Shown here one piece after another: positions 1 through 13,412 of a stretch of 13,412 nt of DNA (positions are counted from its first letter, which is position 1; every line of letters begins with the position of its first letter). The DNA is from Naegleria gruberi (taxonomy: Eukaryota). A program made the translations under genes and the position numbers. The stretch is from assembly GCA_000004985.1 (NCBI GenBank), contig GG738992.1, one strand, 5' to 3'. Under the pieces are notes generated by a model, which saw nothing but the letters and a program-made list of their open reading frames with translations, did no database searches and had not been told where the DNA came from.

Positions 1-260
1 TAAAAATAATTCAAATAGGACGTGATGATTTACTCACTTATTTCAGTGTTTGGTTCAGCACGGTTTCAATTTTATAAAAATTCACATGTTTTTAATTATT
101 AATATAATTGATTTCCCGAGCCAAACGCCGAAATAAATGACTTGTAATTGTTGCAAAGTGGTATGTCAGAAAGTAGGTCGATAATTTTTTTCATTTTTTT
201 CAAGTGTTTTTTATTTAGATCAGTGACAGTTCAATAATTCCACTAGTTAAGAGAAAACAA

Positions 261-779
261 ATGCCAATAAAACAAAGGAAGCATTCAAAGCAATGTTCTG
301 TTTGTTCAAAATACGTTCTCAAGGTTTATTTAAAACCGGAAGTCGATTCTTCAACATCAAAAACGAAGAAATATTGTTGCAGTAAATGTAGAGATGAGTT
401 ACGCAATGGTGGCAGTGATGATATTATGGAAGCTGATCAGCATGATGAAGGAGAAGATGGATTACATGGTACTCCAATGGCTTCTCAAATTTCTTCTCAA
501 TACAATACGTCTCAAAATCAGCCAAGCTTTCAGAGTCTAGTATATAATGGAATTTTACCTTCTTTTCAACCATTTCCCTCCAACACTACTGACAAAATTT
601 TCCCAATTCAAACATTTGCAAAATTTAGAATGATTGATTTTACCAATCACAATGATTCAGACCTGTCAAATTGTGGACCAATGTTAGGGATGGATTATAA
701 TCTTAGGAAAGAATTGGATAGAAATTGTCATATGGCTAGAACTATTCAATCCTCAAATAGTCTCATTTCTTATTTATGA
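261..779 (+). CDS. Hypothetical Cys-rich protein with a C-x2-C ... C-x2-C treble-clef-like arrangement. It is possibly one exon of a larger gene together with 796-1164.
   Basis: 172-aa ATG-initiated ORF. The 'CSVCSKY...(23 aa)...CCSKC' motif resembles a zinc-binding pair of Cys dyads. An acidic stretch 'DDIMEADQHDEGEDG' follows. No recognisable family. Confidence 0.3.
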   Translation: MPIKQRKHSKQCSVCSKYVLKVYLKPEVDSSTSKTKKYCCSKCRDELRNGGSDDIMEADQHDEGEDGLHGTPMASQISSQYNTSQNQPSFQSLVYNGILPSFQPFPSNTTDKIFPIQTFAKFRMIDFTNHNDSDLSNCGPMLGMDYNLRKELDRNCHMARTIQSSNSLISYL

Positions 780-795
780 TTCGAAATTCACTATA

Positions 796-1164
796 ATGGA
801 TAAAGTAGCCGCTTATTCATTCCTTACTTCTGCAGGATGTTCAATTTCAAAGGATGTGCATGAATGGTTGAGAGAAAAATTGTATGAGCAATTGAGAAAT
901 TCAATTCAGACCGAAAAAATCAAATCTGAAATCAAAAAATACACAAAAATTAGAAATTGTCAAACCTACACAGTGGTTGAGAATTCAAATGAGGTGAATG
1001 AAATGTCAAAAGAATTTAATCCAAAAGATGTTTCGAATGAAAGAAGTAGAAAAACAAAAAACAAACCAATTATTGAAATTAAAAAGAGTGCTGGTTTACA
1101 ATGTAACAACTGTAATTCCTTCCATATTACACTGGACATGTTTGGTGACGATTCATTCTTGTAA
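796..1164 (+). CDS. Hypothetical protein of unknown function.
   Basis: 122-aa ORF starting 17 bp after the stop of the 261-779 ORF, in a different frame. It is Lys/Glu-rich with a terminal 'CNNCNSF' Cys pair. It could be a second exon or frameshifted continuation of the upstream ORF. Confidence 0.25.
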   Translation: MDKVAAYSFLTSAGCSISKDVHEWLREKLYEQLRNSIQTEKIKSEIKKYTKIRNCQTYTVVENSNEVNEMSKEFNPKDVSNERSRKTKNKPIIEIKKSAGLQCNNCNSFHITLDMFGDDSFL

Positions 1165-4100
1165 CAATAAAAAAAATATCATCACGATGCACCACTCTTT
1201 TCAACATGTTAATTTTACATCATCAAAAATCAATTAATTATTACTATTATAATTGTAGTTTTTTAATTGGAGCAATATATCATGATATAATTAATATTAA
1301 TTATAATATTAAAATTTAAAATATGAAGTTGCGATAATGAAACTAGTTATGAATGTCCGAAATTTAATGGAAATTTTTATAAGGAAAGTATGTAATTATT
1401 GTACTTGTTTTAAAGACTATAGAAATACTAACAATAATATCTGATTTATTACTTTAGACTTTTTAATAATTTACAGTTCAATATCATCTAATCTTGTTGT
1501 TGGTATTTCTAATAATTGTAATTGACACTATCTTTAAATATCAAATAATTATTATGCTCATTTATTTGAGAGAAGATTCATCTTATCACAATTAGAAATG
1601 AATGAAACCACAACTGATAAATTGTATACAATTATCCTTATACAATTTCATATTATCAGTAAGGTAATCAACAAGAGTTGTTTCACTTTAAGAATTGAAT
1701 TATTAATTATGGAGAAAATTTACTTGACGATCAATTGAATAGAACTTGCTATCAAACTCCAAACAAGTACTAACTCATACTAATTTCAGTTTGGCTAGTG
1801 TTCGTCCATTTGATTTATTACATATTAACAGTTTATATTTCATCACGAAGAATTATTGATATCACTTCCTGTTCTTACCACTCCAATTAGTGGAAGAGAT
1901 TAACTTTATTGTAAATTTGGTAAGTATTTATTTGAATGAGTTTACTCAACATTCACAACAAAAAGACTCTAATATTGCTGAAATTGGATTAGAAAACAAG
2001 ATTTAATGTGAGTGTGTCATGTTTGGAATTGGATAAAATCAAAATTCATACCTTGGATGATGATCAATTGTTTAATTCATGATTAAATTTGGATAGTTTA
2101 TTGCTGGAATTATACTCGTGGGTCCTCTTTGGTGAAGAACCTCTTTCTGGGCATGCCAGAGGAGATTCCGTGTTTGATGGATTTGTTTCAGGTATGTTAT
2201 ATTGTTTTAGAATATTATCAACTATAATATGAATGTTAATAATCAAATTGTGGATTGCTTTCTGTGTTGGACTTAATAGAACTCAATAACTGGCAAGTTA
2301 ACTAGATAAGGCTTTACAATCATCAGATTTAAAGAATGCAATATTATATTTGGAAAATTAATTGGAATATTTGATTTTTGACTAATTGAATGAGGCAACA
2401 AAGAGTCTCTATGGAAATTCCACTGGCATTATTATTTTTGAATTAGGATTGTTCATATTTGGAAACAATTACAGAGTAGTGTTTCTGCTGGTGGTGACTC
2501 TTGCCAAGCTGTTTCAAAGATATGATTTAATATTTAGAGAAGGAAATACCGTTATGTGAATGCCTTTTCATTAAGATAGAACAAATGAGTGAGTTACCAA
2601 TTCACTCAAGCTCAAAGATTCACATTCATTTTCATTCAAAAACTCACTCAGTTTGGAAAAGGTACTCAGATTGAAAAGAAAATGATTCATTTGCTTGGTA
2701 GCTCTCAACTAAATTCTTATCCAATGAGAAGAGAGGTTTATCTAACAATCTTGATTCCTTCTTCGATTGGAGAATTGTTTTTTGTTGAGATAAACTGAAG
2801 AATAATCTGGTGAAACTTGCTGGGAAACTTTGAAATCCATTGACAAGGACTGGAGGGGAAAGGAGGTATCAATGGAGTGTTGAATCTACACAGAATAATT
2901 CGATTTGATAATTTTCGTCCATAGCAACTTTTAATGCTCTAAAGTGTGCTCTTCAACTTCAAAGTCACAGTTTCCTCTTCAATGGATGAAACAAGTATGC
3001 AAAGTAAATGGAAGGGTGTATGTTTTCTTTCTTCATTTGCATGAAAGGATTTATGAACGGTTGTCGAAATAAGCGATTAATGGTATAAGTGTTGGATAAT
3101 TTTGCAGATATTATCTGTCCCTTTCAATCAAATATTCATGAACCTTTCTTCTATAATTAATGAAATCTGCTCATTTGAATGGTCCCAACAAATCTGATTT
3201 CGAACCTATCTATACAATCTCTGTAAATCAAGTGCTAACAGTTCAAATGAAAGTAAGGAAGAGAATGTTGGAGGTGGAGATGACGACTGGGAATTTTTCA
3301 ATGTTGAAAAAACGAACCAGTTGAATCTGAATAGCAAGTGAATGAACTAGTCACTAAGAAATTCGTCTTGGACGAAAGTGAATTCGAACTTGATTATTAC
3401 ACAATATTCCATTGCTAATAATGGTCAAACTCTCTTTACAAATATACTCCTCATTCAATAAGATCTTGGAACTGTTGGTAATACTCTCCAATCATATGTA
3501 AGCTCTCAATAACAATACCTTGTATGAGGATTATGAAGCCAAAGTAACAAATTACTCATTTCCAAAATGAAATGACATCACTCTTGAATAAGTTGATTTA
3601 CCTTAAATATTATTCCAGTTTTGGATAAAATATTAATAGCTAATTCACTGATAGTGCCAATTGACATCCACTTTTTAAACCCATTTAGACAGTAGTTGTC
3701 TTTTCACTAAATTATTCAGAACCATCCTATAAGATAATTTTACAAAATGAAATAAGGGAGACAAATCTTACCTGTTATATAATATAATTCAACGATCCAA
3801 AAATTATCTAATTTCTACATCTATCCAAAATTAAAATTAATTCCAATAATTTCAAATTATCCTAAATTCATTCCAAGTACATTAATTGATGAAATAATTC
3901 CACTCCAATTCCATGTCAATCAAGTAATTTCATAATTATCCAATTTTTTCAATTATTATTTCATCCACTTCCAAATAATTATTTACAAATTTGCAAGTCA
4001 GTTCGAAATATTTCAAAACAATATTAATAATTAAGAGAAAATTAAAATTTAATTACTTATCATCCAATAACCAAAATCGAAATTATCGTAACATTTCATT

Positions 4101-4180
4101 GAATGACAAGACATTTCCCAATTAACATATACTCTGTTATCATAGTCATTACAAACCAATGTCATGGCTGTGTACTCACA

Positions 4181-4473
4181 NNNNNNNNNNNNNNNNNNNN
4201 NNNNNNNNNNNNNNNNNNNNNNNNNNNNNNNNNNNNNNNNNNNNNNNNNNNNNNNNNNNNNNNNNNNNNNNNNNNNNNNNNNNNNNNNNNNNNNNNNNNN
4301 NNNNNNNNNNNNNNNNNNNNNNNNNNNNNNNNNNNNNNNNNNNNNNNNNNNNNNNNNNNNNNNNNNNNNNNNNNNNNNNNNNNNNNNNNNNNNNNNNNNN
4401 NNNNNNNNNNNNNNNNNNNNNNNNNNNNNNNNNNNNNNNNNNNNNNNNNNNNNNNNNNNNNNNNNNNNNNNNN
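4181..4473. other. Assembly gap (run of N).
   Basis: 293 consecutive 'n' characters. The six-frame ORFs crossing it (X runs) are artefacts of the gap. Confidence 0.99.
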
Positions 4474-5061
4474 ATATTACTCCTTCTGCTCTTCTTGATT
4501 CCTCTACTTGATACAACCCTCCCCTTCGATACCTTCTCTTTTGGTGTCTTGGTTTTCTTCTCTTGTTGTTGTTCAAAGAATTCACGATCGTAATTGATGA
4601 AGTAGTTAGTACAGTTTTTTCTACTCTTGATTGTTTTGATGGTGGCTGGCATTTGATTGTTTTTTTGTTGTTTGTTTGTGATGAGTAACCAGCAGAGTGA
4701 TATGCTAGGTTCAGTGTTGTTACATTTTTTTTTAAAACATTACAAAGACTACCAAATTGCAGGCCCGCCTCTGTATGGCTGAATTTTTACGGCCTTGGCT
4801 TTTTGTCATTGTAATGGGTAATAAAATAATTTTAAAAAAATCTTCATCATCATCATGCTTATCAAATCATCATAACCCTAGTAGGATCAAACCAACTATT
4901 AATTCGGATAAATGTGTTCAATATATATATTTATAATTTACAATTGGTGGTGATGGAATATAATTAAAGCCAGTGTTCATTCAGGACACTTCATGATGAT
5001 TTTAAATAATCAGCACAGCAACAACTCTTACTCTCCTTCTGATGGATTTTCAGAGAGAGTG

Positions 5062-6189
5062 TTAACTACTACTATCACTGTTCTTTTGCTGGGCTTTCTT
5101 TCTAGTCTGACGATAATTATCAAATCTCTTCTTTTTTACCTTCTGATCCTCAACGGCATCGACAGTAGTAAGCTTGATTGCAGCCACTTCCAATTCCTTC
5201 AAATCATTATTTGAGTATGGAGGTTTTTCTAAATGGAACATCTCCACAAGTTTATCAACAGCCATACCAAATTGACCAATAGTTTTCACTTCTACTTGTT
5301 GTATTGGTGTGAGAGAGTAAGTGTTTCCTCTGAATGTGAAGGAGGTTGCTTTACATACCTCATCTTCATCTTCTACCCAGACTGCTGCTAAAGCTTCCCT
5401 GACCTTTCTCTTCTTTTGTTTAAAATGGAATTCGACTTGAGAAGTTCTCTTTTTGGCCTCTGATTCGGATTTAACTAGCTCCTCATTCAATTTCTTCAAT
5501 GTATCACATTCCAAAACAAGTTGGTCAGTTCTTTGAGCAAGTTCATCACGTTCTTGAACTAATTGGGCTATTCTTTCTTCATACTTTTTTTGCTGAAATT
5601 CAAATGTTGTGGAATGAATCATGTTGTTTGTAGGACCACAACTGGAAAAACTAGGAATAGTTCCTCCCGAAAAACTTGGAATTGAAAAATTAGAAATAAT
5701 TTCAGAACTACTTGCGCTTCCACCAACAACAGCACCACTATATATATTAACATGAGGAGCAGAAGGAAAACTTGAAATGTTACCAAATGGTTGAGTCATT
5801 CTTGATGATGTAGGAAGGGATGACGATGGTGTAAATAATGTTGCCAATGGTGGTTGTGATGGTTGTTGTTGAGATAGATGAGGAATAACATTTTGTGAAA
5901 TGGTTGAAAACACTGTTGGAGGTGAAGGACCAAAAATGTCTGAATTATCAACATGATTATTCTTTGGATCCAATAAGGTTGTCATATTGACAAGTGAACT
6001 AGCCGAAGTTTTATGGAGATCAGCAAAGTCTATGGCTAATTCATTCCATTTCCAATTCAACACGGCACCAACTATAAACTCTGCATTATTGAAAACCAAG
6101 TTAGAGTTTGTCTCCACAGCACTGACAGAGATTTGCATCTGGGTATCATCATTACTTACAAATCCCATGACTTTTCCTACACATAACAT
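5062..6189 (-). CDS. Hypothetical protein of unrecognised family. It has an N-terminal globular segment, a Ser/Pro/Gln-rich low-complexity linker, a central coiled coil and a C-terminal globular domain of about 120 aa.
   Basis: 375-aa ORF from ATG to TAA (stop at 5062-5064). The middle 'KKYEERIAQLVQERDELAQRTDQLVLECDTLKKLNEELVKSESEAKK' is heptad-like coiled coil. The long 'SQQQPSQPPLATLFTPSSSLPTSS' region is low complexity. Amino-acid composition is coding-like and there are no internal stops over 1.1 kb in AT-rich DNA. Confidence 0.55.
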   Translation of the reverse strand: MLCVGKVMGFVSNDDTQMQISVSAVETNSNLVFNNAEFIVGAVLNWKWNELAIDFADLHKTSASSLVNMTTLLDPKNNHVDNSDIFGPSPPTVFSTISQNVIPHLSQQQPSQPPLATLFTPSSSLPTSSRMTQPFGNISSFPSAPHVNIYSGAVVGGSASSSEIISNFSIPSFSGGTIPSFSSCGPTNNMIHSTTFEFQQKKYEERIAQLVQERDELAQRTDQLVLECDTLKKLNEELVKSESEAKKRTSQVEFHFKQKKRKVREALAAVWVEDEDEVCKATSFTFRGNTYSLTPIQQVEVKTIGQFGMAVDKLVEMFHLEKPPYSNNDLKELEVAAIKLTTVDAVEDQKVKKKRFDNYRQTRKKAQQKNSDSSS

Positions 6190-6364
6190 TCATCATAAGG
6201 AACAACAAGTATTACACTAATAGGCCCTTCAGGCTTATTCTTGAGAAGATTATCACTTGTCACAGTATGCTTCTGGATGTAGAGGTAGTTGGATGTTGGA
6301 TCTAACAAGTTTCAACTTTTTCAAGATTAAAGCCTTGTGTGAGAACAGACTTGTGTCACTCATC
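6190..6364. promoter_or_regulatory. Putative shared, bidirectional promoter or 5'UTR region between the divergent genes 5062-6189 (-) and 6257-7558 (+).
   Basis: The two ORFs run head-to-head. The first 36 codons of the + ORF ('MSQYASGCRGSWMLDLTSFNFF...') look non-protein-like, so the real start is probably the Met at about 6365 ('MRLSLTSIQ...'). That leaves about 175 bp between the two start codons. Confidence 0.3.
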
Positions 6365-7558
6365 ATGCGTTTATCATTAACATCCATACAAAGAACCTCA
6401 ACAAACACTACCTTAACAAAGGCTAAGAAGAAGAGACTATTGGAAAGTGGAAGGGAGGATGTTATATTAGAGTTTCTTGCAATGAAGAGACGAAATCGAC
6501 AATTAGCAAAAAGTAATAATAACAGCCTCAATCATCAACAACAACCTCAACAACCTCAACATTCTTTTAATTGCTCTACTCTTGGTTGTCAGTGTCATCA
6601 TCATCAATACGACCCTTATCATCATCATGTACCAAGTCATCAGATTCCTTCTACAGGTCAAGTAGAAACCAATATTAATCATCAAACTATGCACGAATTA
6701 GAATTGGGTGGAATTGATACAGTGATGAGCAATAGTCATCGTGTTGATGATGATGATTATGAAGGATTGGATTTTCTTCAAGCATTGCAAAGTGGACTCT
6801 TAAAGAAGGCTAGAGACTCACTTCTCGAAGATGATAAACCTCTCTTCAAAGGATCAGAGCATACCTTCACAGACATGTCTCTCACTCTAGCCAAATACTT
6901 TGCTGAATCAAAGAGTTCAAAAGCCAATATGAACACTCTAATCACAATCATCAACTCGATCTTTGGACCAATCCTCAACAAGAGAATACCCAAACTAAAA
7001 ACAATCCTCAACAAGATTGAAAATGTAAAGAAGGATTACGAGCAAGTCTATTATTGTGCTAGTCATGAGCAAATCATTCCTAGAGGAGGTGAATGTAGCA
7101 TCTGCAAGGCAAAGATTGGAAAGTCACCTTACTATTGGCATAAGTCCTTCAAATCCTGTATTTCAGAATTGGTGGAAATAACTGGATTAGCCAAATTGAA
7201 AGAGGTTGTAAAAAGACCAAGCTTTCTTTCTCACCCCTCATTAACAACAACAAGAACAACAACATTACATTCAACAATTACATCAAATCAATCTCCACCT
7301 CAATCATTAGCAACAACAACAACAAGAATTGGAAATAGTACCACTACTACTGCTCAACATCTTCAAACAATAGCAGATTGTTGTGATTCAACAGAATACG
7401 AAAGAATTACAGGTAATGGTTGGTGGGATGATAATGCTCTTTGCCTCACACTGAGTGCTGGTACTGATGGTGCATGTGCTACAAAATCAACAAATAAGAG
7501 CATCAATCCTCTCCTTGCTTGGATCAATGAGCTGCCCTTGGAAACTCGATTCTCATAA
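6257..7558 (+). CDS. Hypothetical Gln/His/Thr-rich protein with a basic N-terminal segment and a Cys pair ('CASHEQIIPRGGECSICKAKIG'). The true start is probably internal, near 6365.
   Basis: 433-aa ORF ending in TAA at 7556-7558. It has low-complexity poly-Q/H ('NHQQQPQQPQH', 'CQCHHHQYDPYHHHVP') and poly-T/N tracts ('SLTTTRTTTLHSTITSNQSPPQSLATTTTRIGNSTTTTAQ'). No family recognised. Confidence 0.5.
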   Translation: MSQYASGCRGSWMLDLTSFNFFKIKALCENRLVSLIMRLSLTSIQRTSTNTTLTKAKKKRLLESGREDVILEFLAMKRRNRQLAKSNNNSLNHQQQPQQPQHSFNCSTLGCQCHHHQYDPYHHHVPSHQIPSTGQVETNINHQTMHELELGGIDTVMSNSHRVDDDDYEGLDFLQALQSGLLKKARDSLLEDDKPLFKGSEHTFTDMSLTLAKYFAESKSSKANMNTLITIINSIFGPILNKRIPKLKTILNKIENVKKDYEQVYYCASHEQIIPRGGECSICKAKIGKSPYYWHKSFKSCISELVEITGLAKLKEVVKRPSFLSHPSLTTTRTTTLHSTITSNQSPPQSLATTTTRIGNSTTTTAQHLQTIADCCDSTEYERITGNGWWDDNALCLTLSAGTDGACATKSTNKSINPLLAWINELPLETRFS

Positions 7559-7744
7559 CGGTAAGCTTTCTTCTTGCCTATGCAAACCATTCCATTCCAT
7601 ACAAAGTTCTCTTACACAATTTTATCAGTGAATTAATCTTGCTAGATAGGGGTGTTGAGATGAAGGATCCACATAATAACAACTCTACCTATACTCTAAA
7701 GGTGAGATTGTTTAACATGATTAGATTTAGTCTCCATTCAAGAA

Positions 7745-8170
7745 TTGTTAGAAATTGGACATGCTGGGTGCAATGGTTGTCGGTTCTGTAACCTTCTTGG
7801 TAGAAAGGATAAAGATACAGGTGTTATTTATTCATCCATTAGTGGTTGCAATAGCAGTGGCCAAGGTAACCCAATTACACGAAATTGGGAACAAATGAAA
7901 CCAAATTTTATCAAACTGTACAAGAATGAAATTCCATCCTTTGAAGGAGTTTCGGGTGTTTCCATTCTATTAAGGTTACCCTATTTTAGAGGGACAACAC
8001 AGGTGAGTTGTGATGTATTGCACAATCTCTTGGAAGGAAGGTACTCAATAGAATTGTTGTTCTCTATGATAGACACCTTCCAGATATTAATAGTAAGTTG
8101 CGCTTTCAAATTATTATATTGTTGTAACAATTCAAATTATTATAACACCAACAATATAATTATATCGTGA
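7745..8170 (+). pseudogene. Transposase relic fragment 1, carrying the Cys-rich 'HAGCNGCRFCN' and 'DVLHNLLEG' motifs.
   Basis: 141-aa ORF. A GTAAGT donor-like site at 8093 follows 'FQILI'. The downstream sequence reads as AT-rich intron-like DNA. Confidence 0.35.
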
Positions 8171-8234
8171 AATTATTATAATATTAATAACAATTAATAA
8201 CAACAACAATAATTCCATTATATAATATATTAAC

Positions 8235-8621
8235 ATGACATTCACACAAATTATGTATGTTTTAATATCAACTTTTCATTCTTTTCCAAAAGAAAACCTC
8301 TTATCTATCAATACTCCTTCCATGTATCACAGACAAGTGAGAGATTTGAGTAATTTGGCTCACTATAAAGCCATTGAGTTTTACATGATATTTGCCTATT
8401 GTACATCAGCTTTTCAAGGAATTTTGAGTCAAGCCCATTATTCAATCATGGTTGGAATTAAAGATCTCATCTCTACCATTATGAATCCCTTCCCAAAGGA
8501 CAATACTCGAATCAAATTGTTCGACTATGAAGTTAGCACTCTACTTCAAAATGTTGAAAAGGAGTTTGGCTCTAATTGTTGTACATTGGCTACACATTCG
8601 GTAAAACATTTTCCAGAGTAA
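8235..8621 (+). pseudogene. Transposase relic fragment 2.
   Basis: 128-aa ORF. Its coding-like portion starts after the AG at 8291-8292 or 8331-8332. It ends at 'HFPE' immediately before 'gtaagttgtaacaatttag'. It lies between two fragments with transposase-like motifs. Confidence 0.3.
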
Positions 8622-8732
8622 GTTGTAACAATTTAGCGGTGACACTGATTATCATCACCACCGTCAATGTTGACCCACTTCCACTCAATAATACCACACA
8701 ATGCATTCATATTCCATGATATTATACAATAA

Positions 8733-8981
8733 TATAGTTCAATTTGGAATACTGGACCACTCTATGCTACGAGTACATTTGTTTTAGAGGATGCAATTGG
8801 TACAATCATCTCCACCATTAAGAATGGTAAGGTGAATATGGATCACAAGGCACTCCAATGTTGGAAGATTTTCCAACTCTTCTCATTTAGAACGAGATCA
8901 TTTGGTTATCAATTTTCAAAAGGTAGGTACTTAGTTCAAACATTTATTGTTAATTCAATTTTTCAGGAGATGCACTTTTAA
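8733..8981 (+). pseudogene. Transposase relic fragment 3, DUF4218-like, with sequence 'WNTGPLYATSTFVLEDAIGTIISTIKNGKVNMDHKALQCWKIF...'.
   Basis: Stop-free frame of about 82 codons read by hand from 8733. The GP..(8)..F.LE...G.I motif spacing matches the TNP2-family C-terminal conserved block. Confidence 0.35.
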
Positions 8982-9064
8982 TGAATAATGTAAAATACAT
9001 GATTATGGGAAAGTAAGTTTGTTTTGTTTTAATTACATATTTAATTTATTCGAATATAAATTTT

Positions 9065-9100
9065 CAATTCAATCAATCAATTCAATTCAATCAATTCAAT
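9065..9100. repeat. Simple-sequence repeat (CAATT/CAATCAATT)n.
   Basis: The sequence is 'caattcaatcaatcaattcaattcaatcaattcaat', seen directly. Confidence 0.8.
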
Positions 9101-9155
9101 AATGATGAAATGCAAATCATTGAATCTAACTTTTATAAATATTTTGGCAATAATA

Positions 9156-10208
9156 TCATTTTCTTTCAAAAAAACCTTTGTAATCGGCAGCCATTTTGTT
9201 TAACTGCTTCCAATACAATTCTCTATCTTTTCTTAATGATTCATCAGCATATTCAAGTGCACGTCTATTTTGTTTAACTGCTTCCAATACAAATTCTTTA
9301 TCTTTTCTTAATGATTCATCAGCATATTTAAGTGCACATCCAGTTTGTTTAACTGCTTCCAATATAATTTCTTTATCTTTTCTTAATGATTCATCAACAT
9401 ATTTAAGTGCACATCCATTTTGTTTAATTGCTTCCAATACAATTTCTCTATCTTTTCTTAATAATTCATCAGCATATTCAAGTGCACATCCAGTTTGTTT
9501 AACTGCTTCCAATATAATTTCTTTATCTTTTCTTAATGATTCATCAGCATCTTCAAGTGCAAAGCCATTTTGTTTAACTGCTTCCAATACAATTTCTCTA
9601 TCTTTTCTTAATAATTCATCAGCATATTCAAGTGCAAAGCCATATTGTTTAATTGCTTCCAATACAATTTCTCTATCTTTTCTTAATGAGTTATCAGCAT
9701 ATTCAAGTGCACGTCCATTTTGTTTAACTGCTTCCAATACAATTTCTCTATCTTTTCTTAATAATTCATCAGCATATTCAAGTGCAAAGCCATTTTGTTT
9801 AACTGCTTCCAATACAAATTCTTTATCTTTTCTTAATGAGTTATCAGCATATGCAAGTGCACGTCCATTTTGTTTAATTGCTTCCAATACAATTTCTCTA
9901 TCTTTTCTTAATGAGTTATCAGCATCTTCAAGTGCACGTCCATTTTGTTTAACTGCTTCCAATACAAATTCTTTATCTTTTCTTAATGAGTTATCAGCAT
10001 ATTCAAGTGCACATCCATTTTGTTTAACTGCTTCCAATACAAACTCTCTATCTTTTCTTAATAATTCATCAGCATCTTCAAGTGCACTAATATTTTGTTT
10101 GATAACTGCCAATACAATTTGTCTATCTTGTTTTAAATATTTTGGCTTGTCTTTTTCTTTCAAAAATGCCTTTGTAATCGGCCAGCCATTTTGTTTAACT
10201 GCTTCCAA
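9156..10208 (-). CDS. Kinase locus segment 4. It has a non-repeat linker 'WPITKAFLKEKDKPKYLKQDRQIVLAVIKQNISALEDADELL', about 12 repeats, and the tail 'ELYWKQLNKMAADYKGFFERK'.
   Basis: 350-aa ORF. It is in frame with segment 3 if a single T is restored in 'caatacaattctct' near 10212. Confidence 0.5.
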   Translation of the reverse strand: MEAVKQNGWPITKAFLKEKDKPKYLKQDRQIVLAVIKQNISALEDADELLRKDREFVLEAVKQNGCALEYADNSLRKDKEFVLEAVKQNGRALEDADNSLRKDREIVLEAIKQNGRALAYADNSLRKDKEFVLEAVKQNGFALEYADELLRKDREIVLEAVKQNGRALEYADNSLRKDREIVLEAIKQYGFALEYADELLRKDREIVLEAVKQNGFALEDADESLRKDKEIILEAVKQTGCALEYADELLRKDREIVLEAIKQNGCALKYVDESLRKDKEIILEAVKQTGCALKYADESLRKDKEFVLEAVKQNRRALEYADESLRKDRELYWKQLNKMAADYKGFFERK

Positions 10209-12826
10209 TACAATTCTCTATCTTTTCTTAATGATTCATCAGCATATTCAAGTGCACGTCTATTTTGTTTAACTGCTTCCAATACAATTTCTTTATCTTT
10301 TCTTAATGATTCATCAGCATCTTCAAGTGCACATCCATTTTGTTTAACTGCTTCCAATACAAATTCTCTATCTTTTCTTAATGATTCATCAGCATCTTCA
10401 AGTGCACGTCTATTTTGTTTAATTGCTTCCAATACAATTTCTCTATCTTTTCTTAATGATTCATCAGCATCTTCAAGTGCACGTCTATTTTGTTTAACTG
10501 CTTCCAATACAATTTCTTTATCTTTTCTTAATGATTCATCAGCATATTTAAATGCAAAGCCAGTTTGTTTAACTGCTTCCAATACAAATTCTCTATCTTT
10601 TCTTAATGATTCATCAACATATTTAAGTGCAAAGCCATTTTGTTTAATTGCTTCCAATACAAATTCTCTATCTTTTCTTAATGATTCATCAGCATCTTCA
10701 AGTGCACGTCTATTTTGTTTAACTGCTTCCAATACAATTTCTTTATCTTTTCTTAATGATTCATCAACATATTTAAGTGCAAAGCCATTTTGTTTAACTG
10801 CTTCCAATACAAATTGTTTATCTTTTCTTAATGATTCATCAGCATATTTAAATGCAAAGCCATTTTGTTTAACTGCTTCCAATACAATTTCTCTATCTTT
10901 TCTTAATGATTCATCAACATATTTAAATGCAAAGCCATTTTGTTTAACTGCTTCCAATACAAATTCTCTATTTTTTCTTAATGATTCATCAACATATTCA
11001 AGTGCACGTCCATTTTGTTTAACTGCTTCCAATACAATTTCTCTATCTTTTCTTAATGATTCATCAGTATATTTAAGTGCACGCCAATTTGTTTAACTGC
11101 TTCCAATACAATTTCTCTATCTTTTCTTAATGATTCATCAGCATCTTTAAGTGCACAGCCATTTTGTTTAACTGCTTCCAATACAATTTCTCTATCTTTT
11201 CTTAATGATTCATCAGCATCTTCAAGTGCACATCCATTTTGTTTAACTGCTTCCAATACAATTTCTCTATCTTTTCTTAATGATTCATCAACATATTTAA
11301 GTGCAAAGCCATTTTGTTTAACTGCTTCCAATACAAATTCTCTATCTTTTCTTAATGATTCATCAACATATTTAAGTGCAAAGCCATATTGTTTAATTGC
11401 TTCCAATACAATTTCTCTATCTTTTCTTAATGATTCATCAGCATATCCAAGTGCAAAGCCATATTGTTTAATTGCTTCCAATACAATTTCTCTATCTTTT
11501 CTTAATGATTCATCAGCATATTCAAGTGCACGTCCATTTTGTTTAATTGCTTCCAATACAATTTCTCTATCTTTTCTTAATGATTTATCAGCATATTTAA
11601 ATGCCAAGCCATCTTGTTTAACTGCTTCCAATACAACTTCTCTATTATCCTTTGATAGTAGATGCAACGAAACCCCTTGTAATACACAAAGTAACTGTAT
11701 ACAACGATTTTTACGAAATCGGTAGAGTGTATGTATTTGGTGTGGTATTGTGATTGGTCCTGATAAATGTATATCAAAAATGGCCTCCAATATTCTGTTA
11801 GCAGAAAACCTTTTCTCCAATGATTCATCTAACATGCCTCTAAGTATTAATAATAATTCTCTCCATACGGTCACATCTTTCTCCAGATTTCCCCTTTCTA
11901 TTAATTCTAAAATATTATTGTCATCTAACAAGTCTATTTTTTGAATATCTTCTTGCAATTTCATTAGCACTTCAGCATGAGACTGTGTTTCATCTATTTT
12001 TCTAGCAAACAACAGCCACAGCATGGCTCTTCCCAAACTCCAGACATCACTTAATACACATTGTTCTCCTTTAAAACATTCTGGTGCAATATAACCACAT
12101 GTTCCGTGATGTGTTAAGTATGTGTCTGCAGTATCAGGAGTAGAAAATATATTAGTAGATGAATAAATTGGCTGACTTTTTGATGAAACAGTTCTGGCTA
12201 TTCCCAAATCACCCAATGCAGCATCAATGACATCAAATGAATAAATGGTTGGTTCAAAGCTAATAAAGATGTTTGCAGGTTTGATATCACTATGAATTAT
12301 ATTATGCTTATGCTCATGGAGTCGACATAATGCATTAGCAATTCTAATTAAAATTTGAAGCGCTTCACACAAGAACAATTTTCCTGATTTGTTCTTTCCA
12401 TATTTTTTCATATCCATTCCTCTATATTCTGATACAAGTACAATTTCTTCACCAATTAGTTCCGAAACCTCATAAGTTACCACTAGAATCGAACAACTTT
12501 TTCACAGTTGCAGCAAATCTCCATTCTCCTACTTGATAACCATCTGAATAAGTACCATTCAGATCATTACTTGGAAATATTCCATCAATTAGTTTAACAA
12601 TTTTAACAACGTATTCATATCCATCATCACCCAAACATTTACAAACCAAAGTATCACTTTTTGGATTTTCGAACACTTCTTGAAATTCAAATGATCGTCC
12701 TTTGATGCGAAATTGTTTCAATCGTATGATGGAAGTTATAAGATTTGGTGTGGTTTCTTCAACTTGAACTTGATCTATTTGTCCACCATCTCCAAAATCA
12801 CTAACTCGTTTCTGTGGTGCAAGCAT
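9156..12826 (-). CDS. Protein kinase with an N-terminal catalytic domain, fused to a C-terminal array of about 33 tandem 25-aa DUF4116-like repeats. The frame is interrupted by four single-base indels, so this is a possible pseudogene or an error-containing assembly.
   Basis: Read 5'->3' on the minus strand, the N-lobe ORF (12826->12470) has a Gly-loop-like 'FGDGGQ' and a beta-3 lysine in 'YEYVVKIVK'. The next ORF (12483->11053) has the hinge 'LVSEY', catalytic loop 'HSDIKPANIF' (12286-12294), 'DLG' (about 12208-12216), 'GTCGYIAPE' and 'DVWSLG'. It then runs into repeats of the form 'SLRKDREIVLEAVKQNGxALEYADE'. ORFs 11032->10160 and 10208->9156 continue the same repeats and end in 'RELYWKQLNKMA...', which is a -1-frame reading of a repeat unit. 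The ATG at 12824-12826 is the likely start. Confidence 0.7.
9200..11680. repeat. Tandem array of about 33 copies of a 75-bp unit. It encodes the 25-aa repeats on the minus strand, and copies are near-identical at the nucleotide level.
   Basis: The string 'ttaactgcttccaatac' recurs at an exact 75-bp period (for example 9275, 9350...). The + strand consensus is 'ttgtttaactgcttccaatacaatttctctatcttttcttaatgattcatcagcatattcaagtgcacgtccatt'. Variation is confined to a few positions. Confidence 0.92.
10160..11032 (-). CDS. Kinase locus segment 3, about 11 DUF4116-like repeats ending in the frameshift-derived tail 'ELYWKQLNKMAGRLQRHF'.
   Basis: 290-aa ORF composed entirely of 25-aa repeats. It is separated from segment 2 by a 1-bp deletion ('gcacgccaatttg' versus consensus 'gcacgtccattttg') near 11085. 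Confidence 0.55.
   Translation of the reverse strand: MEAVKQNGRALEYVDESLRKNREFVLEAVKQNGFAFKYVDESLRKDREIVLEAVKQNGFAFKYADESLRKDKQFVLEAVKQNGFALKYVDESLRKDKEIVLEAVKQNRRALEDADESLRKDREFVLEAIKQNGFALKYVDESLRKDREFVLEAVKQTGFAFKYADESLRKDKEIVLEAVKQNRRALEDADESLRKDREIVLEAIKQNRRALEDADESLRKDREFVLEAVKQNGCALEDADESLRKDKEIVLEAVKQNRRALEYADESLRKDRELYWKQLNKMAGRLQRHF
11053..12483 (-). CDS. Kinase locus segment 2, covering the kinase C-lobe (subdomains V-XI) plus the first 8 or so DUF4116-like repeats.
   Basis: 476-aa ORF whose track start is GTG, not ATG. It contains the motifs HSD, DLG, APE and DxWSLG, then the repeats. Confidence 0.6.
   Translation of the reverse strand: MVTYEVSELIGEEIVLVSEYRGMDMKKYGKNKSGKLFLCEALQILIRIANALCRLHEHKHNIIHSDIKPANIFISFEPTIYSFDVIDAALGDLGIARTVSSKSQPIYSSTNIFSTPDTADTYLTHHGTCGYIAPECFKGEQCVLSDVWSLGRAMLWLLFARKIDETQSHAEVLMKLQEDIQKIDLLDDNNILELIERGNLEKDVTVWRELLLILRGMLDESLEKRFSANRILEAIFDIHLSGPITIPHQIHTLYRFRKNRCIQLLCVLQGVSLHLLSKDNREVVLEAVKQDGLAFKYADKSLRKDREIVLEAIKQNGRALEYADESLRKDREIVLEAIKQYGFALGYADESLRKDREIVLEAIKQYGFALKYVDESLRKDREFVLEAVKQNGFALKYVDESLRKDREIVLEAVKQNGCALEDADESLRKDREIVLEAVKQNGCALKDADESLRKDREIVLEAVKQIGVHLNILMNH
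12470..12826 (-). CDS. Kinase locus segment 1, covering the kinase N-lobe (subdomains I-IV).
   Basis: 118-aa ATG-initiated ORF with 'RVSDFGDGGQIDQV' (Gly-rich loop variant) and 'GYEYVVKIVKL' (VAIK-like, with Lys). It ends at a TGA that overlaps the next segment by a +1 shift. Confidence 0.55.
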   Translation of the reverse strand: MLAPQKRVSDFGDGGQIDQVQVEETTPNLITSIIRLKQFRIKGRSFEFQEVFENPKSDTLVCKCLGDDGYEYVVKIVKLIDGIFPSNDLNGTYSDGYQVGEWRFAATVKKLFDSSGNL

Positions 12827-12870
12827 TGTTCAAACAATGTTTAAAGGAATTTTTTTGTTTTTGTTTTTTG

Positions 12871-12924
12871 AAACGTGATGGTATTACATGACCAACACAC
12901 TGAAGAACACATTCTATCACGTTT
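12871..12924. promoter_or_regulatory. Candidate regulatory site: a perfect 9-bp inverted repeat AAACGTGAT (36-bp spacer) ATCACGTTT, 45-100 bp upstream of the kinase-gene ATG.
   Basis: 'aaacgtgat' at 12871-12879 and its reverse complement 'atcacgttt' at 12916-12924. Both contain an ACGTG core. Both lie in the putative promoter of the minus-strand gene starting at 12826. Confidence 0.2.
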
Positions 12925-13412
12925 TAATACTAAAGGATGGTAGCAATCCTATCAATGATAACAATTACTGTTCGTTGTTCCACAACACCACTAACACCAC
13001 TAACACCATTCCGAAATAATTCTACATATGAATATGATAATACGCTTTAATTTTGTTATTTTTTTCATAAAATCGTAATTTACAGTTTTCATCACATATT
13101 TTAATTATTTATTATTTTATAAAAAATACCTCTTTTTCAAAAATATGATGAGACCAACCACAGCAACACAACTACACGGAACATCATGCACAACATCACC
13201 AAACCTTACATTTATTGTAAGAAGATTATGATGAGAGTTCACTGGTGAGAGTCCATATGTGATTACTCGACACTCTAGGTTTAAACATTTTTGAATCTAT
13301 TCGTGAAAATCATAATAATTGTTGTAGGATTGTTGTTTCAAGAGTTGTTGTTGTTGTTGATATTGTTAACAAAAATTACCAACAACAAAATACTCCACCA
13401 ACCATCAAGAGT

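What the first reader, a model, noticed from the sequence alone, without database searches (positions are those of the whole stretch)
9200..11680. Near-identical 75-bp repeats suggest a recently expanded or concertedly evolving array, with risk of assembly collapse
Adjacent 75-bp units differ at only a handful of positions. The variable codons are mostly the 'x' in 'QNGxA' (C, R or F), E/Y/D before 'ADES', and K/R in 'RKDK/RKDRE'. Such high nucleotide identity over about 2.5 kb implies ongoing unequal crossing-over or gene conversion, or a very recent expansion. The true copy number may differ from what the assembly shows, especially given the nearby N-gap in the same scaffold. The variable positions are few and recurrent, which is the pattern expected if they are surface or specificity positions of a solenoid.
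Basis: seen in the sequence. Interest (0 to 1): 0.5.

Follow-up and report, generated by a model that had tools for sequence, protein, structure and literature searches.

The report
Homogenised DUF4116 repeat array, Naegleria kinase gene
The 75-bp repeats are real: they encode 31 copies of a 25-residue helical repeat (DUF4116) at the tail of an unannotated and apparently broken protein-kinase gene of the amoeba Naegleria gruberi. The copies have been kept nearly identical by recent duplication and exchange, which is a well-known behaviour of repeat arrays.

Summary
On the minus strand, 11637-9190 holds 31 full 75-bp units and two truncated ones. Mean pairwise identity is 91-92%, about 6 differences per unit.

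The units encode Pfam DUF4116 repeats (E down to 7e-241) following a protein-kinase domain. The window is an entire 13,412-bp orphan scaffold of the Sanger-sequenced N. gruberi NEG-M genome. The gene is not in the protein set; its only close relative is the paralogue NAEGRDRAFT_62160.

Recent expansion or concerted evolution is supported:
- Codons for the same amino acid are identical in 97.6% of unit pairs, against 39-47% in other Naegleria DUF4116 arrays.
- Third-position divergence is 4%, against 56-66%.
- The edge units are the most divergent.
- Variants are thoroughly reshuffled between units.
- A copy of the gene's own 3' tail sits inside the array. Its repeat part is 116/117 identical to the true end, while its non-repeat part is only about 80% identical.

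The "surface positions" idea is only partly supported. Codons 11, 14 and 9 are family-hypervariable, but a third of the variable codons are conserved hydrophobic positions, and most variants are G:C>A:T changes.

Four frame breaks make this a pseudogene or a poor consensus. Assembly collapse cannot be tested here. This is an ordinary new member of a known kind.

The parts
12470..12826 (-). First ORF of the gene: ATG at 12826, encoding the N-terminal 115 residues and the N-lobe of the kinase. It ends at a premature stop because of a frame break.
   Evidence: ORF list. 109 of 115 residues are identical to the N. gruberi paralogue P0002 / NAEGRDRAFT_62160.
12481..12486 (-). Frame break in the kinase domain. 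The window reads AGTGGTAACT where the paralogue's 'DSSVVTYEV' requires two more bases (AGTGTGGTAACT).
   Evidence: Reading of the sequence against P0002.
11638..12483 (-). Rest of the protein-kinase domain (motifs HSDIKPAN, DLG, GYIAPE), followed by a linker ending in a degenerate half unit (LLSKDNRE).
   Evidence: Pfam Pkinase at 70.5 bits against a cut-off of 31.7. About 90% identical to P0002 up to 'GEQC'. PDB kinases match only weakly.
10215..11637 (-). Sub-array A: 19 DUF4116 units of 75 bp (u2-u20). u2 is a divergent edge unit.
11082..11084 (-). 1-nt deletion in unit u9 (GGCTGTGCA becomes GGC-GTGCA). It breaks the frame and leads to a stop at 11055-11053.
10213..10219 (-). 1-nt deletion at the u20/u21 junction (GAGAAATTG becomes GAGAATTG). 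It breaks the frame and leads to a stop at 10162-10160.
   Evidence: It lies inside the 105-nt exact duplicate of the true 3' end.
10119..10214 (-). Internal copy of the gene's 3' end: a truncated unit plus 66 nt of non-repeat tail. It acts as a 96-nt spacer between the sub-arrays. In the repeat frame it reads IVLEAVKQNGWPITKAFLKEKDKPKYLKQDRQ.
   Evidence: Alignment A1 with 9219-9120. The repeat part is 116/117 identical, the tail is about 80% identical with indels, and homology is lost after about 200 nt.
9220..10118 (-). Sub-array B: 12 DUF4116 units (u22-u33). u22 is a strongly divergent edge unit. The variants DNS (codon 18), ELL (codon 19) and I2 are private to this block.
9156..9222 (-). 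True 3' end. It has the same 1-nt deletion in u33, then truncated unit u34 read in the shifted frame (…RKDRELYWKQLNKMAADYKGFFERK*), with the stop at 9158-9156.

Best explanation
The region is the C-terminal repeat domain of an unannotated kinase-DUF4116 gene on a 13.4-kb orphan scaffold of Naegleria gruberi NEG-M. Each 75-bp unit encodes a 25-residue, three-helix turn of an alpha-solenoid (Pfam DUF4116). In this family that module is fused to many kinds of signalling domain, so it most likely serves as a protein-binding scaffold. That function is inferred, not shown.

The units are near-identical because the array was built or homogenised recently, by unequal crossing-over and gene conversion between misaligned units. 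Interior units keep being overwritten, while edge units and the non-repeat tail escape and drift. One such event duplicated a block of roughly 1 kb that included the gene's own 3' end, leaving a tail copy inside the array.

The few differences between units are mostly G:C>A:T changes at first and second codon positions. Third positions are already almost all A/T. These changes have been spread and reshuffled among units by the same exchanges.

As assembled, the gene has four frame breaks, so it is most likely a young pseudogene. One break may itself have been copied from the terminal unit into the interior by conversion. Consensus errors in a low-quality scaffold remain possible.
For: Identity and organism:
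- ORF 5062-6189 is 100% identical to XP_002668637.1 / NAEGRDRAFT_54686, whose contig is 13,412 bp, exactly the window length.
- The NEG-M genome was Sanger-sequenced.

Domains:
- DUF4116 scores 291-778 bits against a cut-off of 24.9; Pkinase scores 70.5 against 31.7.
- The kinase-plus-DUF4116 architecture recurs in N. gruberi (P0002, P0005, P0054) and in metagenomes.

Fold:
- AlphaFold2 with an alignment gives pLDDT 96.9 in all five models, with helices at unit positions 24-8, 10-15 and 18-21 (the single-sequence model agrees).

Recency or homogenisation:
- Nucleotide identity is 0.907, the same-codon fraction is 0.976, and differences at codon positions 1/2/3 are 0.149/0.086/0.044. N. lovaniensis and N. 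fowleri arrays give identity 0.53-0.55 and third-position difference 0.56-0.66.
- Only 6 singleton substitutions occur in 29 units.
- Identity does not decay with distance (lag 1: 0.917; lag 12: 0.911).
- Edge units u2 and u22 are the most divergent (9.2 and 13.8 mean differences, against 5.1-8.2 for the rest).
- 65 of 136 site pairs show all four gametes, and there are 28 haplotypes among 29 units.

Tail duplicate:
- A 105-nt exact run links 10287-10183 and 9292-9188; the tail beyond it has diverged.

Mutation spectrum:
- 13 of 23 G/C sites vary, against 8 of 52 A/T sites (P = 6e-4).
- 12 of 23 minor alleles are GC>AT.

Frame breaks and annotation:
- Frame breaks.
- No protein from this gene appears in the database, although its neighbour is present.
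Against: - No reads, transcripts or second assembly were available. The four indels could therefore be consensus errors and the gene could be intact.
- DNA of the paralogue could not be fetched, so within-gene versus between-gene similarity could only be compared at the protein level. The difference there is small: 19.8 against 18.8 identical residues of 25.
- Nonsynonymous differences exceed synonymous ones (pN 0.097 against pS 0.031). This could reflect diversifying selection on a functional protein rather than mutation bias.
- The in-register similarity expected from a 13-unit block duplication is only borderline (P = 0.054).
- The biochemical role of DUF4116 is unknown. Only four papers mention it.
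Confidence: 0.7

Rival explanations
1. The gene is functional and the frame breaks are consensus errors. Differences between units are maintained by diversifying selection on ligand-contacting positions of the solenoid. Homogenisation keeps the scaffold constant while selection keeps codons 9-11, 14-15 and 18-19 diverse.
For: - 20 of the 21 variable columns change the amino acid, and pN/pS is 3.2.
- The three most variable codons (11, 14, 9) are among the five most variable family-wide and flank the N-G turn between helices 1 and 2.
- Variants sit at intermediate frequency and in many combinations.
- The paralogue varies at the same codons.
Against: - The synonymous deficit is not robust. P ranges from 0.006 to 0.31 depending on the assumed GC>AT bias, because 24 of the 25 third positions are already A/T.
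- Five variable codons are conserved hydrophobic positions (1, 2, 6, 13, 16).
- Y15D (8 units) replaces a family-conserved aromatic residue; D occurs at 2% in the family.
- Two of the four frame breaks sit inside a 105-nt exact duplicate, which is hard to explain by random sequencing error.
- There is no annotated gene model for this gene.
Confidence: 0.2
2. The array as shown is partly an assembly artefact. The copy number, the order of units or the internal tail copy come from collapsed or mis-joined reads in a small, poorly supported scaffold.
For: - The window is a 13.4-kb orphan scaffold with a 293-N gap.
- There are four indels in about 3.7 kb of coding sequence.
- 150-nt stretches reach 98% identity to one another.
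Against: - The genome was Sanger-sequenced. No 600-nt stretch is more than 94% identical to another, and no 750-nt stretch more than 92.9%, so reads of that length can be placed uniquely.
- The two tail copies differ by indels and substitutions, so they are two real sequences rather than one sequence placed twice.
- The sub-arrays carry private variants.
Confidence: 0.15
3. The high nucleotide identity reflects only strong purifying selection on a very conserved repeat, combined with AT-biased codon usage, in an old and stable array.
For: The DUF4116 consensus is highly conserved even between bacteria and Naegleria. Within-protein amino-acid identity between units has a median of 0.69 among the hits.
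Against: - Synonymous codons differ between positions but not between units: Leu is TTG, CTT or TTA according to position, Ala is GCA or GCT, and Val is GTA or GTT.
- Other Naegleria arrays of the same family and GC content share the codon in only 39-47% of same-amino-acid pairs.
Confidence: 0.03

Closest known systems
Pfam DUF4116 (PF13475) repeat proteins, especially the N. gruberi kinase-DUF4116 proteins NAEGRDRAFT_62160 (P0002), P0005 and P0054
   Same: The repeat matches the same HMM far above threshold, with the same 25-residue period and the same consensus (VLEAVKQNG.AL.YA...L+.D+E). The kinase-plus-repeat architecture is the same. The kinase domain is 90-95% identical to that of P0002.
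   Different: This copy is not annotated and its frame is broken. It has about 31 units, against the 7-13 modelled in the paralogues. Its units are far more alike at the DNA level than those of the N. lovaniensis and N. fowleri arrays examined. It also contains an internal copy of its own 3' end.
Concertedly evolving coding tandem arrays in general (unequal crossing-over and gene conversion, with divergent edge units). This comparison rests on established knowledge, not on a database hit.
   Same: Interior units are homogeneous and edge units divergent. Variants are mosaic. Identity is independent of distance. A segmental duplication is present.
   Different: Nothing is unusual in kind. The one less common feature is that third codon positions are the least variable. 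Mutation bias can explain this.
TAL-effector repeats: near-identical 102-bp units that differ at two specificity codons (from my own knowledge; used as an analogy only)
   Same: Near-identical DNA units in a helical solenoid, with amino-acid differences concentrated at recurrent codons.
   Different: Here 15 of the 25 codons vary, including core hydrophobic positions. There is no sequence or fold match to TALE, no known polymer ligand, and the gene is eukaryotic and fused to a kinase.
Armadillo, HEAT and Pumilio alpha-solenoids, designed helical repeat proteins, and the 24-residue leucine-rich repeat variant (1lrv)
   Same: All are all-helical superhelical repeat folds. Armadillo and Pumilio also have three helices per unit. 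These are the best structural matches found.

Membership tests
DUF4116 (Pfam PF13475) | Match to the family HMM above the gathering score | tested here: met
   291.5, 692.3 and 778.3 bits for the three ORFs against a cut-off of 24.9, with 4, 11 and 12 matched stretches.
DUF4116 (Pfam PF13475) | 25-residue periodicity with conserved V2, L3, A5, V6, G10, A12, L13, aromatic 15, A16, L20, D23 and E25 | tested here: met
   The consensus of the 29 window units was compared with 458 units from 109 homologues.
DUF4116 (Pfam PF13475) | All-alpha solenoid fold (predicted for the family in PMC8078820) | tested here: met
   AlphaFold2 gives pLDDT 96.9 and pTM 0.86, with three helices per unit. This is a prediction only; no solved structure of the family exists.
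Eukaryotic protein kinase (Pfam PF00069) | HMM match above the gathering score | tested here: met
   70.5 bits against 31.7.
Eukaryotic protein kinase (Pfam PF00069) | Complete catalytic motifs in an intact reading frame | tested here: inconclusive
   The lysine in VVKIVK, plus HSDIKPAN, DLG and APE, are present by reading. No glycine-rich loop is recognisable. The domain is split by a 2-nt frame break at about 12483.
Concertedly evolving or recently expanded tandem array | Homogeneity at synonymous sites, beyond what protein conservation explains | tested here: met
   The same-codon fraction is 0.976 against 0.39-0.47 in three other Naegleria arrays. The third-position difference is 0.044 against 0.56-0.66.
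Concertedly evolving or recently expanded tandem array | Edge units more divergent than interior units | tested here: met
   u2 has 9.2 and u22 has 13.8 mean differences; all other units have 5.1-8.2.
Concertedly evolving or recently expanded tandem array | Units more alike within the gene than between paralogues | tested here: inconclusive
   Only protein-level data were available: 19.8 (within the window) against 18.8 (window versus P0002) identical residues of 25. Each array has private recurrent variants: K14 in 11 units and D15 in 8 units here, none in P0002. Paralogue DNA could not be obtained.
Concertedly evolving or recently expanded tandem array | Copy-number variation between individuals or reads | not testable with these tools
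   No reads or other N. gruberi assemblies are available.
TALE-like 'code' repeats | Variation confined to one or two specificity codons per unit | tested here: not met
   15 of the 25 codons vary, five of them conserved hydrophobic positions.
Pseudogene | Reading frame disrupted in the genome itself, not only in the assembly | tested here: inconclusive
   Four frame breaks are present in the assembly and no gene model exists. Traces and transcripts are not available.

The most novel reading that the evidence does not exclude
DUF4116 arrays could be modular recognition solenoids. Each 25-residue turn would contact one unit of a repetitive ligand (a peptide or another polymer). The residues around the N-G turn (codons 9-11) and on helix 2 (codons 14-15) would set specificity. 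Homogenisation together with selection for diversity at those codons would let Naegleria retune the targeting of kinases quickly. On this reading the frame breaks are sequencing errors.
Probability: 0.06. Interest if true: 0.7.

Novelty: new member of a known kind. Interest (0 to 1): 0.27.

Why it matters
This is mainly a matter of curation. A roughly 3.7-kb kinase-DUF4116 gene or pseudogene on a small N. gruberi scaffold is missing from the annotation, and it is a clean worked example of repeat homogenisation. The internal copy of the gene's 3' end acts as a built-in clock: identical repeat sequence sits next to a diverged non-repeat tail.

The result also shows that DUF4116 is widespread and fused to many signalling domains, yet it has no solved structure and almost no literature. 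A confident three-helix, 25-residue solenoid model and a map of tolerated variation may therefore help anyone who takes the family up. It does not open a new biological question by itself.

Tried and rejected
1. Fetching DNA for the N. gruberi relatives P0002, P0005, P0054 and P0126 with the look-up of encoding contigs returned nothing on record (one search likewise for the window ORF). A DNA-level unit tree against the paralogue was therefore impossible. N. lovaniensis, N. fowleri and metagenome arrays were used as comparators instead.

2. A 225-bp higher-order period was suggested by TRF. It was rejected: identity at lag 3 (0.921) barely exceeds lag 1 (0.917) or lag 2 (0.914).

3. A test for a 13-unit block duplication by in-register similarity was borderline only (mean 5.6 against 6.5 differences, P = 0.054).

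4. A positive-selection reading from 1 synonymous against 20 nonsynonymous variable columns is not robust once GC>AT bias is allowed (P 0.006-0.31). Among A/T sites alone, positions 1/2 and position 3 do not differ (P = 0.26).

5. The correlation between window variability and family variability per position was not significant (rho 0.23).

6. Plus-strand ORFs across the array (9196-10272 and 10191-11096) have no credible Pfam match. They are open only because the unit lacks stop codons in that frame.

7. Introns or programmed frameshifting as explanations for the breaks were rejected. The breaks are single-base deletions inside otherwise perfect units, and one is a 2-nt loss relative to the paralogue.

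8. The afdb50 fold library was unavailable. PDB searches gave only generic solenoid matches.

9. Model coordinates cannot be read by script, so burial of the variable positions could not be computed. It was only inferred from helix positions and hydrophobic conservation.

Full report
**What is there**

Tandem Repeats Finder finds two 75-bp arrays, 9191-10136 and 10183-11645, with 90-92% matches and scores of 1465 and 2359. The coding strand is the minus strand.

Cut at the unit boundary, the region holds 31 full units. I number them u2-u20 (11637-10215) and u22-u33 (10118-9220). Each encodes 25 residues with the consensus IVLEAVKQNG[R/F/C]ALEYADESLRKDRE. There are also two truncated unit starts, u21 and u34.

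All three minus-strand ORFs across the region match Pfam DUF4116 (PF13475) at 291-778 bits against a cut-off of 24.9. The plus-strand ORFs have no credible match.

Upstream, the same reading direction encodes a protein-kinase domain (Pkinase, 70.5 bits against 31.7). It starts from an ATG at 12826.

**Where it comes from**

ORF 5062-6189 is 100% identical to N. gruberi XP_002668637.1 (NAEGRDRAFT_54686). The contig carrying that protein is 13,412 bp, exactly the length of the window. The window is therefore a complete small scaffold of the NEG-M genome, which was Sanger-sequenced (PMC9928731 Table 1).

The kinase-DUF4116 gene itself has no entry in the protein database. Its only close relative is the paralogue XP_002682207.1 (NAEGRDRAFT_62160, P0002), which lies on a 941-kb scaffold. 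P0002 is 109/115 identical over the N-terminus and about 90% identical over the kinase core.

**The observation**

Adjacent units differ at 6.2 of 75 positions on average. Mean pairwise identity is 0.918 for the 29 non-edge units. One pair (u14 and u17) is identical.

Twenty-one columns in 15 codons vary. The N gap (4181-4473) is 4.7 kb from the array.

1. The frame is broken four times:
- a 2-nt loss in the kinase domain relative to the paralogue, at about 12483;
- 1-nt deletions in u9, u20 and u33.

2. The array is two sub-arrays separated by 96 nt (10214-10119), and this spacer is a copy of the gene's own 3' end.
- The stretch u20 + u21 aligns with u33 + u34 + 3' flank. The first 117 nt, which are repeat sequence and include the shared 1-nt deletion, are 116/117 identical.
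- The next roughly 83 nt, the non-repeat tail running past the stop codon, are only about 80% identical and contain indels.
- Homology fades after about 200 nt.

**Is the array young or homogenised?**

Amino-acid similarity alone proves little. DUF4116 units are very conserved everywhere, with a median within-protein unit identity of 0.69 among the hits; this array is at 0.795. The nucleotide evidence is what decides the question.

- Synonymous codons differ by position but not by unit. Leu is always TTG at codon 3, CTT at codon 13 and TTA at codon 20. Ala is GCA at codons 5 and 12 and GCT at codon 16.
- Codon pairs that encode the same residue are the same codon in 97.6% of cases. Third-position difference is 0.044.
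- In two N. lovaniensis arrays and one N. fowleri array of the same family, the figures are 39-47% and 0.56-0.66, with nucleotide identity of 0.53-0.55. These comparator units were picked with an HMM built from the window units, so the contrast is conservative.
- Two metagenomic arrays (L004 and L005) show that homogenised DUF4116 arrays also occur elsewhere.

Further signatures of exchange are these:
- Identity does not decay with distance.
- The 5' edge units of both sub-arrays are the most divergent.
- There are 28 haplotypes among 29 units, and all four gametes occur in 65 of 136 site pairs, some only 3 nt apart.
- Each sub-array has private variants.
- Diverged tail sequence sits next to identical repeat sequence.

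Together these support recent expansion with continuing unequal exchange or gene conversion. They do not separate 'very recent expansion' from 'ongoing homogenisation'.

**Nature of the variation**

Twenty of the 21 variable columns change the amino acid. The only synonymous polymorphism is GGA/GGC at codon 10, and it is fully linked to the next codon. By the Nei-Gojobori method, pN is 0.097 and pS is 0.031.

This looks like diversifying selection, but the test is fragile. Twenty-four of the 25 third positions are already A/T. Thirteen of 23 G/C sites vary, against 8 of 52 A/T sites (P = 6e-4). The probability of seeing at most one synonymous column among 21 ranges from 0.006 with no bias to 0.31 with an 8-fold GC>AT bias. 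Twelve of the 23 minor alleles are GC>AT, and 11 of those are transitions.

Codons 11, 14 and 9 are the most variable here and are among the five most variable in the family. They flank the N-G turn between helix 1 and helix 2 of the predicted unit.

Codons 1, 2, 6, 13 and 16, however, are conserved hydrophobic positions carrying conservative swaps (I/F, V/I, L/F, A/V). Y15D, present in 8 units, replaces a family-conserved aromatic residue. The 'surface or specificity' reading is therefore only partly supported.

**Structure**

AlphaFold2 with a 36-sequence alignment gives pLDDT 96.9 and pTM 0.86, with all five models at or above 96. There are three helices per unit, at unit positions 24-8, 10-15 and 18-21. 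The single-sequence run agrees in its best model.

The family is mentioned in only four papers in the library. One of them predicted an alpha-solenoid (PMC8078820).

Among the hits, DUF4116 is fused to kinase, RCC1, BTB, RGS, BRCT and PARP domains, and it occurs in bacteria such as Legionella and Mycoplasmopsis. This fits a general binding scaffold, which is an inference.

**Assembly risk**

Assembly risk cannot be tested here. In the sequence, the longest exact internal repeat is 105 nt. The best self-identity is 98% for 150-nt stretches, 94% for 600-nt stretches and 92.9% for 750-nt stretches. Sanger reads could therefore be placed, whereas short reads could not.

The two tail copies are clearly different sequences. 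Even so, the scaffold is an orphan with a gap, and the gene carries four indels, so consensus quality is an open question.

**Verdict**

'Recent or concerted evolution' is well supported. 'Specificity positions' is partly supported. 'Assembly collapse' is untested.

The object is an unannotated and probably pseudogenised kinase-DUF4116 paralogue of N. gruberi, a new member of a known kind, and of modest interest.

Noticed in passing
window 1-13412: The window is a complete 13,412-bp orphan scaffold of Naegleria gruberi NEG-M. ORF 5062-6189 (-) is 100% identical to XP_002668637.1 / NAEGRDRAFT_54686 (368 aa). That protein has no Pfam domain and only one distant relative.
   Followed up: yes
window 6257-8621 (+): Three same-strand ORFs (433, 141 and 128 aa) have no Pfam match. 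The 433-aa ORF has only 8 relatives among 1.8 billion representatives (best 59% identity, 632 aa), and those also lack Pfam domains. This may be one interrupted orphan or mobile-element gene next to the kinase gene.
   Followed up: partly
window 4181-4473: A run of 293 N (a scaffold gap) lies 4.7 kb from the array. ORFs listed across it are artefacts of the N run.
   Followed up: yes
window 9063-9100: A (TTCAA)n microsatellite of about 8 copies lies about 55 nt downstream of the gene's stop codon, where homology to the internal tail copy ends.
   Followed up: no
window 12980-13008: A 9-bp tandem repeat (CCACTAACA, 3.3 copies) lies about 150 nt upstream of the gene's ATG.
   Followed up: no
window 11638-12826 (-): The kinase domain is atypical. 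It has no recognisable glycine-rich loop, HSD in place of HRD, and DLG in place of DFG. Apart from one paralogue, its nearest database kinases are at most 33% identical. It may be a divergent or inactive kinase.
   Followed up: partly
P0002 (NAEGRDRAFT_62160): The annotated paralogue model jumps from 'GEQCLLS' in the kinase C-lobe straight into the repeats, and it contains a half unit ('IVLELLRKDRE'). This suggests the gene model skips sequence, or that this locus is also damaged.
   Followed up: no
L004 501-2678 and 2919-3178; L005 501-1763: Two metagenomic (probably bacterial) DUF4116 genes also have strongly homogenised units (nucleotide identity 0.82 and 0.90). In L004 the next gene is another DUF4116 protein. 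Homogenised arrays therefore recur in this family outside Naegleria.
   Followed up: partly
window 9156-12483 (-), Pfam output: Many secondary Pfam 'hits' (SpoVR_C, FF_PRPF40A, AfsA, RBD_SIN1 and others) have whole-protein E-values down to 1e-24, but no single stretch passes on its own. They are summed weak matches to a repeat and are not real domains.
   Followed up: yes
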